Made by a program: the position numbers and the translations under genes
Assembly (NCBI GenBank): GCA_030648955.1
Contig: JAUSHB010000013.1
Coordinates: 12,675-76,674, forward strand
Direction of reading: 5' to 3'
Source: a bacterium
GTDB lineage: Bacteria > Patescibacteriota > Minisyncoccia > Phycocordibacterales > JAUSHB01
Length of the DNA stretch: 64,000 bases
Part shown: piece after piece, positions 8,475 through 15,233 of the stretch
How the letters are laid out: each line of letters opens with the position of its first letter
Numbering within the stretch: position 1 is the stretch's first letter
The notes under the pieces: generated by a model
What the model was told of the DNA's origin: nothing
The model's database searches: none
The model's input: only the letters and a program-made list of their open reading frames with translations

Positions 8475-9086
8475 CTAAGGTGCTTCGTCTTCTTCTGGTG
8501 GTGGTGGAGTTACTTGTTCCTTTTTCTTTGCCTTTTCATTTTCTTCATCTTTATATTTAATCATGATCGTGAAATCGATGTTTTTATCTTTTACGAGATC
8601 AGAAATCGGGAGACTCACGTCTTTAAACACTGCGTCTTTTTTAAGTATCTCGACAAAATTTGTAAGACTCTGGCGATTCGTTGCCATTCCTTTTAAAGAA
8701 AGGGTGCTTTCGATATCTGTTTTGTTGTAAAATATTCCCCGTATCTTTATATCTTCAGTTTTATAACGAGCTGTTTTTTGAAGCAGATCGGATGAAAGAG
8801 TAAATTTTTTCCCTTTCTCATTCAGTAGATCAATCGTGGTATCAGTTTCTTTGACAATCACCTCGAGGTTTTTTGCCTCTTGAAAAGATGTTTTTTTGTC
8901 GTCTGTTTTTGATAAATTTTCCACCACGATGGATTGTTTGTGAGACGCGAGAAGATACGCCGGGACAAGAAGTATTATTGCAATAATCATTGTTGTCGCG
9001 AGCATAACAAGCGCGGTAGTAGTAAGCCGTATGCGATACTCCGAGATGACCCTTTTTATTCCTGATATGGGAAGGAGATTTATCAT
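8475..9086 (-). CDS. pilN: Type IV pilus assembly protein PilN-like
   Basis: It has an N-terminal TM helix and lies immediately downstream of pilM, with PilN-like architecture and a Pro-rich acidic tail. Confidence 0.55.
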   Translation of the reverse strand: MINLLPISGIKRVISEYRIRLTTTALVMLATTMIIAIILLVPAYLLASHKQSIVVENLSKTDDKKTSFQEAKNLEVIVKETDTTIDLLNEKGKKFTLSSDLLQKTARYKTEDIKIRGIFYNKTDIESTLSLKGMATNRQSLTNFVEILKKDAVFKDVSLPISDLVKDKNIDFTIMIKYKDEENEKAKKKEQVTPPPPEEDEAP

Positions 9087-9125
9087 GATTTAGAATTCAT
9101 TTCAATAAAAACGGCGTTACGATTG

Positions 9126-10211
9126 TTATTCGGAGGGACGAAGCGCAAGACCAATTGCTGTCGCATAACTTAAGGAGTCGCCGAATTCGATTTCCGGTAT
9201 ATAACGATCAAAGGTATTAACGTTTACCATTGCATTACCAAGTTCTATTTCTGTCTTCAGGCCCGGTAAAACAAAATCAATAAAGCCCGTGAGGTTTGAA
9301 TCACTCCCGCACATAAATACTTTTTCTACCTTGGGTCTTTTTCCGCCATCTTGATCAAGGTGTGTGTTCCAATATATATAATGTTTATTGATCTCATCTT
9401 TTAAAATCGAAACGGTGGACATGAGTACGAGAAACATTTCCTGTGTTTCTTCGTTTTTCAAGAAACCCTTTTCTTTTTTTATATTTTCTGCCTCTTCTGT
9501 GCTAACTCCAAATTGTTTTTCTATTGCTTTTGTGAGCGAACTTCCTCCAATGTTTAGCGTCGAAGTAAAAACTACTGTTTCTTCACTGACAATCGATATT
9601 CCCGTTTGTGTTTTACCAAAATCTACAATCATATAAGTCCCCTTGTCGCCACGCGGAATAATCGAACGAGCAACGGCTTGAGCTTCAACTTCAAACGCGA
9701 TGGGCATGATGCCGGTATGTTCAAAAATACTGGTGTAACTTTCTGCAACAGTGCGGGGCACAGCAGCAAGGGAAAGTTCCATATGTTCTTTATCTTTGTG
9801 TGAACTATTTACAATATCGTAATCAAATGTCGCGTCCCCCATCGATATGGGAACGTATTCTTCAAGCTGAAGTTCCAGACTCCCTCGGATCTCGCTTTGT
9901 TTCATGGTGAGAACATTAATCGTGAGAAGGTACGATTGCTGTTCAGGTAATGAAACGTTGGCAAAATCAATATTGTGTTCTTGATGTATAGAGGATAAAA
10001 CTTTTTTAAGCTCCTCGGTATTTTTTATTTCTCCCCCTATAATAACTCCGGGAGCAATATTTCGAAATCCGTATTTTCCAATTACAAAACCTTTGCGTGT
10101 TTCAATAATTTCCACAAATCGTATAGCCTGATCCGAAATATCAAACCCAACGGAAGGCATTCTCAAAAATACCGGTGGGGGGAAAAATTTATAGAAAAGA
10201 CTTTTTTTCAT
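9126..10211 (-). CDS. pilM: Type IV pilus assembly protein PilM (actin-like ATPase fold)
   Basis: The sequence GFDISDQAIRFVEI ... MIVDFGKTQTGISIV ... LNIGGSSLTKAIEKQF is PilM/FtsA-like. The start was chosen at MKKSLFYKF. Confidence 0.7.
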   Translation of the reverse strand: MKKSLFYKFFPPPVFLRMPSVGFDISDQAIRFVEIIETRKGFVIGKYGFRNIAPGVIIGGEIKNTEELKKVLSSIHQEHNIDFANVSLPEQQSYLLTINVLTMKQSEIRGSLELQLEEYVPISMGDATFDYDIVNSSHKDKEHMELSLAAVPRTVAESYTSIFEHTGIMPIAFEVEAQAVARSIIPRGDKGTYMIVDFGKTQTGISIVSEETVVFTSTLNIGGSSLTKAIEKQFGVSTEEAENIKKEKGFLKNEETQEMFLVLMSTVSILKDEINKHYIYWNTHLDQDGGKRPKVEKVFMCGSDSNLTGFIDFVLPGLKTEIELGNAMVNVNTFDRYIPEIEFGDSLSYATAIGLALRPSE

Positions 10212-10455
10212 CCTGTAGTAGAAAAAGGCATTGCTCTTATCGAGCAAAATTGCTGCTTAGTGGATAAATAAAAAAACAAATCATTTGTTGTACTATGAAG
10301 AATATTATACCATTGTGGGTTGCTCCAATGCCATTTTTCACCGCAGGATTCATGAAATATTCAACGGTATCCTTGTTCCTCTATAAGTATACGGTGCAAC
10401 AGCATAATGCGCAAAGTAAACTTTCTGCGGAATGCGCACCACAGCGGTGCACGCA

Positions 10456-11102: not shown

Positions 11103-11534
11103 TTATTTAAGCGGTGTTCCTACGGGAACTTCTTTTGCTGGTTCGACGGTTGTGAAATGTTCCCCTTCTCCAACAGCATAAAGGATCATCCCCTGGCTTT
11201 CGTGTCCTCGAATCACACGTGGCGCAAGATTGGTGAGCACGGGTACTTGTTTCCCCACCAAAACAGACGGGTCAGGATAATGCATTGCGATACCGGAAAG
11301 AATTTGTCGCGGACTTCCTTCTCCGAGGTCAACCGTAAACTTAATGAGCTTATCCGCATCAGGAACTTTCTCCGCGGAAAGAATTTTCCCGATCTTTATT
11401 TTCAGTTTTGCAAAATCTTCAATCGAAACCATCCCAAGGTCTGACCTTGGGGAATTTTTAAGGTCTGCCTGCGCGGTAGACAGGTCAAACCTTTGCTCTT
11501 CAAGTTTTTTATTTTCACCGTCAGTCATGGGCAC
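11103..11534 (-). CDS. tRNA-binding domain protein (Trbp111/CsaA/MetRS C-terminal-like)
   Basis: The sequence IKIGKILSAEKVPDADKLIKFTVDLGEG...RQILSGIA is a tRNA-binding OB fold. Confidence 0.7.
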   Translation of the reverse strand: MPMTDGENKKLEEQRFDLSTAQADLKNSPRSDLGMVSIEDFAKLKIKIGKILSAEKVPDADKLIKFTVDLGEGSPRQILSGIAMHYPDPSVLVGKQVPVLTNLAPRVIRGHESQGMILYAVGEGEHFTTVEPAKEVPVGTPLK

Positions 11535-12541
11535 ATTGTATCATTATTTATTCTCCACGAATACAAAAATTTTTTGATTCCAACAGAGGGATCGTGCGTA
11601 TCCCCGTGAGAGAGGAGCCCGAGGTACGATTCGTACGTCTCCTTCGTTGGGCGTTTCTCTAAACGCCGAAACATCCTGCATTTGGTCGTTGTCCTGAGGA
11701 CCCGATGGTTTGTAAAGTGCACCCAGCCGAGAAAATCAATGCCTGATGCAAATGTCTTTATAAAAACCTTGTCGGGATGGAGAGTGAGCTTGAGTTTTAC
11801 TTCAAGAAATTCGGAAATTTTTGGGATAAGACTTTCAAGATAATTCTTGTCGCCATGCACTACCACAAAATCATCAGCATAGCGAATATAATGCTTCACC
11901 TTGGTCGTATGTTTCATGAACTGATCAAACTCATTCATATAGATATTGACAAGGAGCTGCGACGTAAGGTTGCCAAGCGGTAGACCGATGCCAATTTTGC
12001 CTTCAGTATGAAAACTATCAATAACCTGCCCCAAAAGCCAGAGAATATTTCCGTCTTTGATATGCCGAGCCAAAATATCTTTCAGTATTGCGTGATCTAT
12101 GCTTGCAAAAAATTTTCTGATATCGCACTTCAAAACCCATGCGGTATTCGTATAGTTAGATGAAACTTTCCCGCTATATTCTCTGAATCGGTTGATGGCG
12201 CGGTGCGTACCCTTGCCTAATCTGCAGGAATACGAATCAAAAATAAATTTCCGGTCAAAATAGGTATAAAGGGTGCGGTAAATCGCGTGGTGCACCAACC
12301 GATCACGAACCGTTGCTTTGTGAATATCACGCGGTTTCGGGTCATTGATCTTAAACGCATAATATCCGCCATGTGTGTATATTTTTGCCGCGAGTTCACC
12401 TCGAAGCAGGAACAGATTATCGGCAAAGTTCAATAAAAACTCCGCAACGTCCTTTCGTTTCCGTTTACCGCGCAAAAATTCCTGCCACGAGACAAGCAAA
12501 TTTTCTAGGGAAATGATATCATCATATCCATGGCGCAGCAT
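11525..12541 (-). CDS. Diversity-generating retroelement reverse transcriptase
   Basis: The N-terminus DIISLENLLVSWQEFLRGKR is DGR-RT style. Other RT motifs are DPKPRDIHKATVRDRLVHHAIY, GLPLGNLTSQLLVNIYMNEFD and the active-site YIRYADDFVVV. It is ~339 aa with no maturase or endonuclease domain. The start was set at MLRHGYDD, and the track ORF extends upstream through a (GA)n tract. Confidence 0.85.
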   Translation of the reverse strand: MLRHGYDDIISLENLLVSWQEFLRGKRKRKDVAEFLLNFADNLFLLRGELAAKIYTHGGYYAFKINDPKPRDIHKATVRDRLVHHAIYRTLYTYFDRKFIFDSYSCRLGKGTHRAINRFREYSGKVSSNYTNTAWVLKCDIRKFFASIDHAILKDILARHIKDGNILWLLGQVIDSFHTEGKIGIGLPLGNLTSQLLVNIYMNEFDQFMKHTTKVKHYIRYADDFVVVHGDKNYLESLIPKISEFLEVKLKLTLHPDKVFIKTFASGIDFLGWVHFTNHRVLRTTTKCRMFRRLEKRPTKETYESYLGLLSHGDTHDPSVGIKKFLYSWRINNDTMCP

Positions 12542-12886
12542 TTTCCTCTCTCTCTCTCTCTCTCTCTCGAAAACGCTTCGATCCTTCAGCGCATCAAAGA
12601 GGGATATTTGGTGTGGTTGAAGATTGTCTCGCATATTCCCAAAGGACAACGCTATACGTTAGGCGCTCGTATTGAAAACAAATTTCTTGATCTGCTCGAG
12701 GTTGCACACCAAGCATACTTCATTGAGCGGGAAAAGAAAATGGGGAAAGTCGTGCAGTGCATATTCCTACTCGACACGCTTAAGTTTCTCCTCCATGTCG
12801 GATGGGAAGCAAAACTTATCTCGCACAAACACTACGCCGAAATCGCAGAAAAGCTGGATGAGATCGGCAAAATGCTCGGTGGCTGA
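12530..12886 (+). CDS. avd: Avd-like four-helix-bundle accessory protein of the DGR (IVS-protein family)
   Basis: The motifs GQRYTLGARIENKFLDLLEVAHQAY...KKMGKVVQCIFLLDTLKFLLHVGW...KHYAEIAEKLDEIGKMLGGW match the Avd/23S-IVS protein family. The gene is divergent from the RT and overlaps its start. The true start is uncertain because the ATG at 12530 precedes the (CT)12 tract. Confidence 0.7.
   Translation: MAQHFPLSLSLSLENASILQRIKEGYLVWLKIVSHIPKGQRYTLGARIENKFLDLLEVAHQAYFIEREKKMGKVVQCIFLLDTLKFLLHVGWEAKLISHKHYAEIAEKLDEIGKMLGG
12543..12566. repeat. (CT)12 dinucleotide microsatellite at the RT/avd junction
   Basis: There are 24 bp of perfect CT repeats. On the minus strand they form a GA-rich tract immediately 5' of the RT start codon, and on the plus strand they encode LSLSLSLS in the annotated avd ORF. 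Confidence 0.9.
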
Positions 12887-12949
12887 AAGAAGAATCTGGA
12901 CAATCCTGAAAAGAAAAACCGCACATCATTATGAGTGCGGAAAAGAATG

Positions 12950-13088
12950 ACTTTCGGGAGCAGAAAACAAACTGGTTGTCGGCATTCCACCTGTTCGACG
13001 GCTTCGCGTTGTTCGCATTAAGCTTGAGTTCCACATCGTCGGCATTCAGATTGAACACATTCGGGTTACCATCACCGGTCAGTATTTG
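12950..13088 (-). repeat. DGR template repeat (TR)
   Basis: It is ~139 bp and ~85% identical to 13403-13541. On the coding (minus) strand every one of ~20 TR/VR differences has A in this copy, which is the adenine-mutagenesis signature. The ORFs drawn over it (12816-13220 minus, 12931-13197 plus) are not genes. Confidence 0.85.
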
Positions 13089-13379
13089 TATGCGATGCCA
13101 TCTGAGCCACCGCCAACCTAGCCCGCCAATCGGCGGAAGAGTGTCGACTGTATCGCATTTGAGATCTAAAATCCGCCAGCATCGCACACCAAGTTGATTT
13201 CTTTTTTGGGAAAAACGCATACCCTCTGCAAAAAACCGTAGCCATTTGCACCCTCAATACGCGCCAACTGGAAAGGTTTCGGGAAGCCATAACCGCCCGA
13301 TATGACCAAACCATTTTGAGTATATCAAAAAAATTTTCAAAAAGCGCCAAAGGGCTCAAGTGTCAAAATCACAAAATTC

Positions 13380-15233
13380 CTAAGATTCAGAGGCTTCAAG
13401 TTTCTTGCGGGAGCAGAAAACAAACTGGCTGACGGCATACCACCTGCGCGACGGCCTCGCGCGGTACGCATCAAGCTCGAGTCCCACACCGCCGGCATCC
13501 AGAGAGAACACACTCGGGTAACCATCACTGGTCAGAATTTGCTTCATGGCGATCAGTTTCCAATCCCTGCCCCCATACTGGAGTCGCAGGTACGGTCCGA
13601 TTTCGGCGGGAGCAAGTTCCAGTCCGAGTTTGATCGCTTTGGCGTATATCTCATCCGTCGTGGCGCCCTTAGGAAAATCGAGTTGTGCAACGGTAAATTG
13701 CACTAATTCGTAAGTTTTACTCTCTGTGCTGAATTCCGTTTTGTAGAGAATGTCTTTTCCCCACTCTGACAGATAGATGTTTTTGGCTTTCAGAGATTCT
13801 TCCGCTTTTTCCGGAGAGTTGACCGTAGGGTCGGTTTCCATGTGTCTCATGAATATCTCTTTGTCGGGAAATGATTCATAAAGATGCTTAATGTTCGGAT
13901 ATTGCTTAATGGTTTGGAAAATGGTCGGATTCCATTCGCCAATATACGCTTTTGTGTCATTATTAATCTCCTTCGGCACATGAGCGATCTCCTCTTTCAC
14001 GCATTCAAAGATGACGAGCATGTCTTCCTCCGAATTTCTCCCTTGGCGAAGTTCCTGGATGCGCGGATCGCTCTCATAGCCGAAGCCTTGGATGGGTGAA
14101 TCAATTTCGTAGAGAAAGATAAATTCGTCTTTGGTGAGCGGTTCGTTTTTCTTTGTTTTGTTTTCAATCTGAGTGAGAAGCTTCATGTCTTCGCTTTTCC
14201 TGCGGTACGTGTCCGCCTCACTTCCGAATTCTGCGAGTTTCTCGTCAAGCACTTCCTGCATGAGAGGCTCGACGCTTTGGTGTGGTAAAACGCCTCGTAT
14301 CTGACCGATCTGAGAACCACTCATTTGTATGGCAAGACGGGGATGAGTCGGTTCGCCACTTGCGTCATTGGTATAATAGACATAAAAATCGCCTTGCTTG
14401 ATATAACTGCTAGCTGTCGTCTTACCTTCCACACACCACCCTGTACCCTGACCCTGCATTGATTCAAAAAGGTTCTCTGCGTCCGTATTATTACCCTGTG
14501 CATACTTCATCCACTGTCCGCGAATTTCTTCGCGGTTCTCCATTGAAGCGGCGAGGGACTTTGAGATAAGCTCGGCATAGAGAGCAGGGAACTTTTTTGA
14601 AAATGCTTCTCGAATTTCCGGCTCTTTGAGATTTTTGTTGTCCGCTTTTACTTTTTCGTAAACATCGAGTATTTGCGCAAGCGCTCCCCGATGAATATCC
14701 GGGAATCGTGCCACGGTGGTGCTCGTTCGTTCTTTGAATTTGCCGAGTTCTTTATCAAATTGAGAAAGCTTGGTGATGTTCCGCCAGACGAAATATTTGA
14801 ACCATGTTGGATAGGCAACATCCTCTTCGCTGAGATAATCCGTCCACGCGTCAAGCGAGTGTTTTTGGTCTTCTATCGCCACCTCCATCATCTGCCTGCG
14901 GACATTTTCGGAGATTTCCTCCACGACCTCTCCGCGCTCACGCGCGATGCGCTTTTGAAGCTCAAAGTATGACTCGGGAAAATTCTCACGCTTGATGATG
15001 AGCGCGTCATATATCTTGTCGCGGAACATTTCAAGATTGCGCTCGCGCGTTCGTTCGTCGGGATTGAGAAAGATGTTCTCCAGACGATCCATATACGCTT
15101 CAATCCGCTCCGCAGGGTCGTTGGGTATCTTTTTACCCGTGTGCCGTTCCTCTCGCTCGACAGCATCTTCTACATCGGATGACGTTTGGAGTTCGGGGAG
15201 CTTTTTGTGGAGAAATTCAAAGTCTTCTTTCAT
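13380..15233 (-). CDS. DGR target protein (617 aa, variable C-terminal ligand-binding-type domain, no signal peptide)
   Basis: The VR occupies the last ~45 codons. The N-terminus MKEDFEFLHKKLPELQ has no signal peptide or TM helix. The remaining ~560 aa match nothing I recognise. Confidence 0.8.
   Translation of the reverse strand: MKEDFEFLHKKLPELQTSSDVEDAVEREERHTGKKIPNDPAERIEAYMDRLENIFLNPDERTRERNLEMFRDKIYDALIIKRENFPESYFELQKRIARERGEVVEEISENVRRQMMEVAIEDQKHSLDAWTDYLSEEDVAYPTWFKYFVWRNITKLSQFDKELGKFKERTSTTVARFPDIHRGALAQILDVYEKVKADNKNLKEPEIREAFSKKFPALYAELISKSLAASMENREEIRGQWMKYAQGNNTDAENLFESMQGQGTGWCVEGKTTASSYIKQGDFYVYYTNDASGEPTHPRLAIQMSGSQIGQIRGVLPHQSVEPLMQEVLDEKLAEFGSEADTYRRKSEDMKLLTQIENKTKKNEPLTKDEFIFLYEIDSPIQGFGYESDPRIQELRQGRNSEEDMLVIFECVKEEIAHVPKEINNDTKAYIGEWNPTIFQTIKQYPNIKHLYESFPDKEIFMRHMETDPTVNSPEKAEESLKAKNIYLSEWGKDILYKTEFSTESKTYELVQFTVAQLDFPKGATTDEIYAKAIKLGLELAPAEIGPYLRLQYGGRDWKLIAMKQILTSDGYPSVFSLDAGGVGLELDAYRARPSRRWYAVSQFVFCSRKKLEASES
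13403..13541 (-). repeat. DGR variable repeat (VR) within the 3' end of the target gene
   Basis: It is the counterpart of the TR. It encodes the C-terminus ...ILTSDGYPSVFSLDAGGVGLELDAYRARPSRRWYAVSQFVFCSRKKLEASES, where the TR encodes ...ILTGDGNPNVFNLNADDVELKLNANNAKPSNRWNADNQFVFCSRKSF. Confidence 0.85.

What the first reader, a model, noticed from the sequence alone, without database searches (positions are those of the whole stretch)
13380..15233. DGR target is a large protein with no signal peptide or TM segment
Most characterised DGR targets are secreted or surface ligand-binding proteins with a C-type-lectin-like VR scaffold. This one begins MKEDFEFLHKKLPELQ..., has no hydrophobic leader, and has ~560 residues of unrecognised sequence before the VR. 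That is compatible with a cytoplasmic target, possibly a diversified intracellular binding or sensing module as proposed for some small-genome and archaeal DGRs.
Basis: inference. Interest (0 to 1): 0.7.

Follow-up and report, generated by a model that had tools for sequence, protein, structure and literature searches.

The report
Leaderless DGR target protein in CPR bacterium
This gene is the hypermutated target of a complete diversity-generating retroelement in a small-genome (CPR-type) bacterium, and like several hundred relatives examined it has no export signal, but the family and this trait are already in published DGR catalogues, so it is a typical member of a known, functionally unexplained class.

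Summary
ORF 13380-15233 (-) encodes 617 aa starting MKEDFEFLHKKLPELQ. Two in-frame TAA codons lie directly upstream, so no leader can be added. It has no hydrophobic N-terminal region, Tat motif, lipobox or TM-like segment. It is a DGR target: VR 13404-13541 matches TR 12951-13088 with 22 mismatches, 21 at TR adenines, and an RT and an Avd gene lie next to it. The trait is family-wide: only 1 of 314 relatives has an N-terminal hydrophobic stretch, and it looks like a miscalled start. The 560 'unrecognised' residues belong to a very large Patescibacteria family (7,044 clusters at 50% identity). Its parts are a helical N1, an alpha/beta N2 with weak GNAT-like fold similarity and an invariant Cys267, 1-5 copies of an M repeat, and a C-terminal C-type-lectin-like domain carrying the VR. 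About 40% of the listed relatives keep N1-N2-M but end in something else, including helical or LRR-like repeats. Only RT and Avd are conserved neighbours, and no viral copies were found. A 65%-identical homologue is in the Roux et al. 2021 target catalogue, and that paper notes that CPR targets lack TM domains. Cytoplasmic location is the most economical reading but is untested. Verdict: a new member of a known kind, of modest interest.

The parts
13380..15233 (-). DGR target (variable protein) gene, 617 aa plus stop; no signal peptide or TM segment
15237..15242 (-). Two consecutive in-frame TAA codons (the first is the RuvX stop), one codon upstream of the ATG; they rule out an N-terminal extension
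14529..15233 (-). N1: all-helical N-terminal domain (aa 1-235); no structural match; the family N-terminus MEKHPLHxKxPELQTS is conserved (here MKEDFEFLHKKLPELQTS)
14154..14528 (-). N2: alpha/beta domain (aa 236-360) with beta1-alpha1-alpha2-beta2-beta3-beta4-alpha3 order; weak GNAT-like fold similarity; carries family-invariant Cys267, Arg299 and Gly314 and near-invariant Arg313
14433..14447 (-). GTGWC motif (aa 263-267); Cys267 is invariant even in relatives 27-35% identical over the N-module
13824..14153 (-). M: linker/repeat module (aa 361-470, motif FLYEI..I.GFGY..DPRI.ELR..RN); present in 1-5 copies in relatives
13383..13823 (-). C-terminal domain (aa 471-617); pLDDT about 90 up to roughly residue 560, 53-86 across the VR and 31 at the tail; C-type-lectin-like fold that carries the VR
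13404..13541 (-). Variable repeat (VR), codons 565-610
12951..13088 (-). Template repeat (TR), 40 adenines, 10 AAY codons; lies inside a non-genic ORF (12816-13220) that mimics the target's C-terminus
12530..12886 (+). Avd accessory gene (bAvd PF22296, E = 5e-13; NCBIfam DivGenRetAVD, E = 1.5e-17), lying between TR and RT on the opposite strand
11525..12649 (-). DGR reverse transcriptase (RVT_1, E = 3e-20; LGNLTSQ and YADD motifs). The listed ORF starts at TTG 12649; the likely real start is the ATG at 12541

Best explanation
The ORF is the variable protein of a complete, apparently functional CPR-type DGR. Shown: TR, VR, RT and Avd are all present and intact, and TR/VR differences fall almost only at TR adenines. 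Inferred from established DGR biology: TR RNA from the - strand is copied by the RT with Avd, adenines are misread, and the cDNA replaces the VR. That recodes about 20-30 positions, including 10 AAY codons, in the C-terminal half of a C-type-lectin-like domain. The protein is made without any Sec, Tat or lipoprotein signal or membrane anchor. It is therefore most likely a soluble cytoplasmic protein, or at least one that does not use classical export. Its design is a constant N-terminal module joined to an exchangeable recognition domain. The constant part is a helical N1 plus a GNAT-like alpha/beta N2 with invariant Cys267 and Arg299 and near-invariant Arg313. About 40% of the listed relatives attach the same N-module to other C-termini, among them roughly 40-residue helical repeats and LRR-like repeats. 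The most likely working model is that the diversified lectin-like domain captures a fast-changing ligand and brings it to, or reports it to, the conserved N-module. What the N-module does chemically is unknown.
Confidence: 0.6

Rival explanations
1. It is a surface-exposed or released adhesin that reaches the outside by a non-classical, signal-independent route. The conserved N-module would dock it onto a surface structure such as pili, and the diversified lectin domain would bind changing host-cell surfaces. This is the standard idea for CPR episymbionts.
For: The literature view is that CPR DGRs diversify host-attachment proteins. The closest structural matches of the C-terminal domain are adhesin tips and lectins such as Bd2740 and CTLDs. 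The family N-terminus MEKHPLHxKxPELQTS is strongly conserved and could be a targeting peptide. Type IV pilus assembly genes lie about 3 kb away in the window.
Against: 313 of 314 relatives have no N-terminal hydrophobic region. No secretion or pilus gene is a conserved neighbour across 80 loci, and the cassette sits among varied housekeeping genes. The protein is highly acidic and has an invariant, apparently unpaired Cys. In the better model the N-terminal peptide is predicted helical and part of the fold.
Confidence: 0.27
2. It is an intracellular immune sensor-effector. The diversified lectin domain recognises phage or other invader proteins, and this switches on a GNAT-like acyltransferase or toxin activity in the N-module, by analogy with tRNA-acetylating GNAT toxins. 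This would be an abortive-infection type of defence.
For: The leaderless state fits a cytoplasmic location. The N2 domain has GNAT-like fold similarity, with TacT3 and AtaT among the hits. Invariant Cys, Arg and Gln residues suggest an active or ligand-binding site. The N-module is paired with LRR-like or helical-repeat sensor-type domains in paralogues. DGR-diversified cytoplasmic sensors have been proposed in other bacteria.
Against: There is no PADLOC hit. The GNAT similarity is partial and the CoA-binding motif is missing. No antitoxin or partner gene is conserved nearby. TacT and AtaT appear only as two of dozens of equally weak GNAT hits. [quoted passage not shown]
Confidence: 0.1
3. It is a phage- or prophage-derived receptor-binding protein, as with Mtd of the Bordetella phage, in which case lack of a signal peptide would be expected.
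For: [quoted passage not shown] A serine recombinase lies nearby in 7 related loci, which suggests mobility.
Against: No relative was found in 2.9 million IMG/VR viral contigs. PHROGs gives no meaningful hit. The flanking genes here and in related loci are housekeeping genes such as RuvX, an aminotransferase and tRNA synthetases, with no phage structural genes.
Confidence: 0.03

Closest known systems
CPR (Patescibacteria) clade-2 DGR targets catalogued by Roux et al. 2021 (and, through their REF_DGR set, earlier surveys), e.g. REF_DGR_[t302] LCES01000001.1 from Microgenomates GW2011_GWC1_38_12
   Same: It is the same protein family: the catalogued sequence corresponds to P0007, which is 65% identical over 97% of the query. 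Both have the same N-terminus, the GTGWC motif and a C-terminal VR, and both lack TM segments and recognisable domains.
   Different: Here the RT, Avd and TR lie directly next to the target. In t302 the RT lies about 62 kb from the target on the same contig. No function has been published for either.
Bordetella phage BPP-1 Mtd, Treponema TvpA and nanoarchaeal AvpA (structurally characterised DGR variable proteins with a C-type lectin / FGE-type fold)
   Same: The VR is C-terminal, uses AAY codons and sits on a C-type-lectin-like scaffold. The mutagenic homing components (RT, Avd, TR) are the same.
   Different: There is no detectable sequence similarity to any of them and the structural similarity is only weak. 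Mtd is a phage tail-fibre protein and TvpA a lipoprotein (my own knowledge). This protein has neither context, and it carries a 470-residue conserved N-terminal module that they lack.
Cytoplasmic DGR targets of multicellular bacteria (STAND NTPase or MoxR-associated C-type lectin 'antigen sensors', Dore et al. 2024)
   Same: Both are leaderless, predicted cytoplasmic proteins in which a DGR-diversified C-terminal lectin domain is fused to a conserved N-terminal or central module.
   Different: This protein has no NTPase. The GWCxxGK stretch is not a Walker A motif, because the Lys position varies (K/R/A/I/S/H/L) across homologues. There are no conflict-system neighbours. By homologue taxonomy the RT belongs with the CPR elements, which Roux et al. 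place in clade 2 rather than clade 5, but I built no RT tree.
GNAT (GCN5-related N-acetyltransferase) superfamily
   Different: Only about 95 residues align, at 4-10% identity for the best hits. The C-terminal half (beta5-alpha4-beta6) is not evident. The Q/RxxGxG/A CoA motif is absent (the sequence is RGVLPHQSVEP). No Pfam acetyltransferase model matches.

Membership tests
Diversity-generating retroelement (system) | TR/VR repeat pair whose mismatches fall almost only at TR adenines | tested here: met
   138 nt, 22 mismatches, 21 at TR adenines
Diversity-generating retroelement (system) | Adjacent reverse transcriptase with the DGR-type [ILV]GxxxSQ motif and a YxDD box | tested here: met
   RVT_1 E = 3e-20; LGNLTSQ at aa 225 and YADD at aa 257 of the ORF. 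That the motif is DGR-specific rests on my own knowledge of DGR RTs.
Diversity-generating retroelement (system) | Avd accessory protein | tested here: met
   PF22296 bAvd E = 5e-13 (above the Pfam cut-off). NCBIfam DivGenRetAVD E = 1.5e-17 but 63.8 bits, below its 80-bit cut-off. It is encoded antiparallel to the RT.
Diversity-generating retroelement (system) | VR at the 3' end of an intact target ORF, with AAY-rich TR codons that avoid stop codons | tested here: met
   VR covers codons 565-610 of 617; 10 AAY codons
Diversity-generating retroelement (system) | Ongoing diversification (VR polymorphism within a population) | not testable with these tools
   Only one sequence of this exact protein is on record. 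Diversification at family level is evident.
C-type-lectin-fold DGR variable proteins (Mtd/TvpA/AvpA type) | C-type lectin / FGE-type fold carrying the VR | tested here: inconclusive
C-type-lectin-fold DGR variable proteins (Mtd/TvpA/AvpA type) | Sequence membership in a known VR-bearing domain family (FGE-sulfatase, DUF1566 and the like) | tested here: not met
   No Pfam or PDB sequence hit for the protein, the family profile or the C-terminal profile
CPR DGR target family in published catalogues (Roux et al. 2021, Supplementary Data 8) | Full-length sequence homology to a catalogued target | tested here: met
   The family motifs KLSQFDK, GTGWC, SYFELQ and DFYVYYT occur in catalogued targets. 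t302 corresponds to P0007, 65% identical over 97% of the query.
Classically exported or membrane proteins (Sec, Tat, lipoprotein, TM anchor) | N-terminal hydrophobic h-region, twin-arginine motif, lipobox or TM helix | tested here: not met
   Best N-terminal 10-mer hydropathy -0.26 and best 19-mer 0.73, against 2.3-3.3 for membrane-protein controls; no RR motif or lipobox; upstream extension impossible. No dedicated predictor was run.
GNAT acetyltransferase superfamily | GNAT fold (beta1-alpha1-alpha2-beta2-beta3-beta4-alpha3-beta5-alpha4-beta6) | tested here: inconclusive
GNAT acetyltransferase superfamily | Acetyl-CoA pyrophosphate-binding motif Q/RxxGxG/A between beta4 and alpha3 | tested here: not met
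   The loop reads R313-G-V-L-P-H-Q319-S-V-E-P323 (family consensus RGILPHQxxEP)
P-loop NTPase (as in AAA/STAND-fused DGR targets) | Walker A motif GxxxxGK[ST] with a conserved Lys | tested here: not met
   G265-W-C-V-E-G270-K-T fits the pattern here, but the Lys position is K/R/A/I/S/H/L across homologues

The most novel reading that the evidence does not exclude
The family is a cytoplasmic, DGR-programmable recognition enzyme or sensor specific to CPR bacteria. A constant GNAT-like, Cys-dependent catalytic or effector module would be aimed at, or triggered by, whatever the hypervariable lectin domain binds. Non-DGR paralogues would use hard-wired LRR-like or helical-repeat binders instead. 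This would be an antibody-like targeting system coupled to an enzyme.
Probability: 0.12. Interest if true: 0.75.

Novelty: new member of a known kind. Interest (0 to 1): 0.33.

Why it matters
Roux et al. 2021 explicitly left open whether CPR DGR targets are truly non-membrane proteins. This locus does not settle that question, but the family analysis sharpens it. The leaderless state is a conserved trait of a very large family, not an annotation gap. The family has a constant N-terminal module with an invariant Cys/Arg site, reused with different binding domains. Only RT and Avd travel with it. That yields testable predictions about cytosolic location, a ligand or enzymatic site around Cys267, and binding through the VR face. 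If the family proves to be an intracellular diversified sensor or enzyme, it would extend DGR biology beyond surface recognition in a quarter of bacterial diversity. As it stands, this is a representative example and not a discovery.

Tried and rejected
1. A longer ORF or alternative start that adds a leader: rejected, because two in-frame TAA codons lie directly upstream and the homologues start at the same place.
2. Sequence annotation of the 560 N-terminal residues: Pfam, NCBIfam, PADLOC, PHROGs, and PDB searches with both the single sequence and the family profile all came back empty or insignificant. Long relatives also gave no Pfam domains.
3. P-loop NTPase reading of GWCVEGKT: rejected, because the Lys is not conserved.
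4. Phage origin: no relatives in IMG/VR and no phage neighbours.
5. Conserved partner genes such as secretion, toxin-antitoxin or pilus genes: none beyond RT and Avd across 80 loci.
6. Additional VRs or paralogues in the window: none. The only other match to the target's C-terminus is the TR-containing pseudo-ORF.
7. Sequence link between the C-terminal domain and known lectin or FGE families: none.
8. Foldseek against AFDB50 was not available, and the Paul et al. 2017 paper is not held, so their cluster naming for this family could not be checked.
9. The Rfam scan of the window found only tRNAs.

Full report
**Observation**

The ORF at 13380-15233 on the - strand encodes 617 residues and begins MKEDFEFLHKKLPELQTS. 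The sequence just upstream in the same frame reads TAA TAA ACC ATG, and the first TAA is the stop of the preceding RuvX gene. No earlier start codon can therefore add a leader.

The most hydrophobic 19-residue window scores 0.73 on the Kyte-Doolittle scale, against a TM threshold of about 1.6. The most hydrophobic 10-residue window in the first 45 residues scores -0.26. Three membrane proteins in the same window score 2.3-3.3 on the same measures. There is no twin-arginine motif and no lipobox, and the protein has a net charge of -24. No dedicated signal-peptide predictor was available, so this check is rule-based.

**It is a DGR target**

- A 138-nt direct repeat links 12951-13088 (TR) to 13404-13541 (VR). 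It has 22 mismatches, 21 of them at TR adenines.
- In the target's reading frame the TR carries 10 AAY codons. The VR spans codons 565-610, and adenine randomisation would allow about 1e20 protein variants.
- Downstream on the same strand lies a reverse transcriptase. It matches RVT_1 at E = 3e-20 and carries LGNLTSQ and YADD motifs.
- Between TR and RT, on the opposite strand, lies an Avd gene. It matches bAvd at E = 5e-13 and DivGenRetAVD at E = 1.5e-17.
- There is no second VR and no paralogue elsewhere in the window.

**The family**

The protein is not an orphan. A word-indexed search found more than 1,300 homologues of about 613 aa, the best 120 at 58-70% identity (plus the identical sequence itself). 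Where they are named, they are labelled as Patescibacteria/CPR lineages or 'hypothetical'. An exhaustive profile search found 7,044 cluster representatives at 50% identity with E <= 1e-3, and 1,601 with E <= 1e-30.

In an alignment of 40 homologues the first 560 residues or so are strongly conserved. The last 45 or so are hypervariable at the positions that are adenine-containing codons here. Entropy is 2.92 bits at AAY-equivalent positions, against 0.94 at codons without A and 0.6-1.2 elsewhere in the protein.

Eighty related loci were fetched from GTDB genomes (three more came).
- 42 loci have a TR within 8 kb with mismatches mostly at TR adenines. Two more hits were a short fragment at a contig end and an identical tandem copy.
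- 35 loci have an RT match, and nearly all of those also have an Avd match (Avd matches in 38).
- The internal order of the cassette is always TR, then antiparallel Avd, then RT. The whole cassette can lie downstream, convergent or divergent relative to the target.
- About ten loci with nearly full 8-kb flanks have no RT or TR.

In the Roux et al. catalogue a homologue sits about 62 kb from its RT, so remote targeting is plausible for the loci that lack an RT. Apart from RT and Avd no gene is a conserved neighbour. The flanks are varied housekeeping genes, and a serine recombinase is nearby in 7 loci. No relative exists in IMG/VR viral contigs.

**Leaderless as a family trait**

Among 314 family proteins, one has an N-terminal hydrophobic stretch. 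That one looks like a miscalled start placed upstream of the conserved MEKHPLH. Three have any TM-like segment. The family N-terminus MEKHPLHxKxPELQTS is itself conserved.

**Architecture**

Segment HMMs run on 150 representatives show N1 (aa 1-235), N2 (236-360), M (361-470, in 1-5 copies), C1 and VR. About 60% have the full N1-N2-M-C1-VR layout or lack only a recognisable VR segment. About 40% keep N1-N2-M but end in something else. The tails read include roughly 40-residue helical repeats and LRR-like repeats (LTSAEGLxLPExVGGDLxL). None of these tails has a Pfam match in the proteins tested.

Relatives only 27-35% identical over the N-module still keep Q123, W130, R169, F215, Y219, G239, C267, A274, P298, R299, G314, I381 and R391.

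**Structure**

- The full-length AlphaFold2 model has mean pLDDT 76 and pTM 0.53. The C-terminal domain is at about 90 up to roughly residue 560 and falls to 53-86 across the VR.
- Foldseek against the PDB found nothing significant. Its top hits are C-type lectin domains at E = 1.4-4.
- The VR scaffold is therefore lectin-like, but only weakly supported, and it has no sequence link to known families.
- A second model of residues 1-365, built from a more diverse alignment, reached pLDDT 83.7 and pTM 0.78.
- The matched region has the secondary-structure order beta1-alpha1-alpha2-beta2-beta3-beta4-alpha3 (aa 239-334). The second half of a GNAT domain is not evident, and the CoA-binding motif Q/RxxGxG/A is absent. 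I therefore call N2 GNAT-like in fold only.
- N1 has no structural match.
- The stretch GWCVEGKT mimics a Walker A motif, but its Lys position is not conserved.

**Literature**

- Roux et al. [quoted passage not shown] They say it remains to be established whether these are genuine non-membrane-bound targets.
- Their target FASTA contains members of this family, for example REF_DGR_[t302] from Microgenomates GW2011_GWC1_38_12. That sequence corresponds to P0007, which is 65% identical to the query.
- Dore et al. 2024 describe predicted cytoplasmic DGR targets fused to NTPases. They cite Paul et al. 2017 for lectin-AAA fusions as the commonest CPR architecture.
- Reviews repeat the host-attachment hypothesis for CPR DGRs.

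**Interpretation**

The DGR assignment is secure. The most economical reading of the missing signal is a soluble cytoplasmic protein, or at least one that does not use classical export. Three things support it: the trait's conservation across several hundred relatives examined, the absence of linked export genes, and the invariant, apparently unpaired cysteine.

In that reading a DGR-diversified lectin-like domain supplies variable recognition to a constant N-terminal module, and paralogues couple the same module to fixed repeat-type binders. I give this about 0.6. A surface adhesin exported by a non-classical route is the main rival, at about 0.27. A defence-type sensor-effector with a GNAT-like toxin is a speculative refinement, at about 0.1. 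A phage origin is essentially excluded. None of these was tested experimentally.

**Verdict**

The phenomenon and the family are already in the literature and its datasets. This is a new member of a known kind. The added value lies in the family-level description: its size, its modularity, the GNAT-like N2 domain with an invariant Cys, and the fixed TR/antisense-Avd/RT cassette.

Noticed in passing
window 12530-12886 (+) relative to TR 12951-13088 (-) and RT 11525-12649 (-); also loci L006-L076: The Avd gene lies between TR and RT on the opposite strand. A TR-RT transcript would therefore run antisense through avd. This TR, antiparallel Avd, RT order is kept in nearly all of the 35 related cassettes that have an RT, whatever the cassette's orientation relative to the target.
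   Followed up: partly
window 12816-13220 (-): A 134-aa ORF spans the TR, and its translation is 52% identical to the target's last 60 residues or so. It looks like a remnant copy of the target's 3' end that hosts the TR, not a gene.
   Followed up: partly
window 12541-12649 (-): The mechanical RT ORF starts at a TTG that overlaps the avd start region. A query started at the ATG at 12541 (MLRHGYDD...) aligns with homologous RTs from about its residue 4, so the first 36 codons are probably not translated.
   Followed up: partly
loci L028, L043, L046, L048, L056, L058, L067 (full-length family members with nearly full 8-kb flanks): These full-length family members have no RT, Avd or TR within 8 kb, although their C-termini vary at the same positions. 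In the Roux et al. catalogue a homologue lies about 62 kb from its RT, so remote (trans) targeting or loss of the cassette are both possible.
   Followed up: partly
L014 8001-9815 and 11370-13184: Avd plus target appear as a tandem duplication with a 3,369-bp period, and the last 183 nt compared (VR and gene end) are 100% identical in both copies. It could be a real recent duplication or an assembly artefact.
   Followed up: no
proteins P0128, P0129, P0151, P0153, P0155, P0263, P0266 (relatives found): The conserved N1-N2-M module is fused to long arrays of an unannotated helical repeat of roughly 40 residues (..LA..LI..G....V..NL..F..LD..) or to LRR-like repeats instead of the lectin/VR domain. 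P0153 also has an 880-residue N-terminal extension with one TM-like segment.
   Followed up: partly
L053 4325-5647 and six other related loci: A serine-recombinase-like gene of about 440 aa lies near the cassette in 7 of 80 loci. The flanking housekeeping genes differ between loci. Both points suggest that the target-DGR unit moves between CPR genomes.
   Followed up: no
window 8475-10247 (-): PilN-like and PilM-like type IV pilus assembly genes lie about 3 kb from the DGR. They are not conserved neighbours of the family in other genomes.
   Followed up: partly
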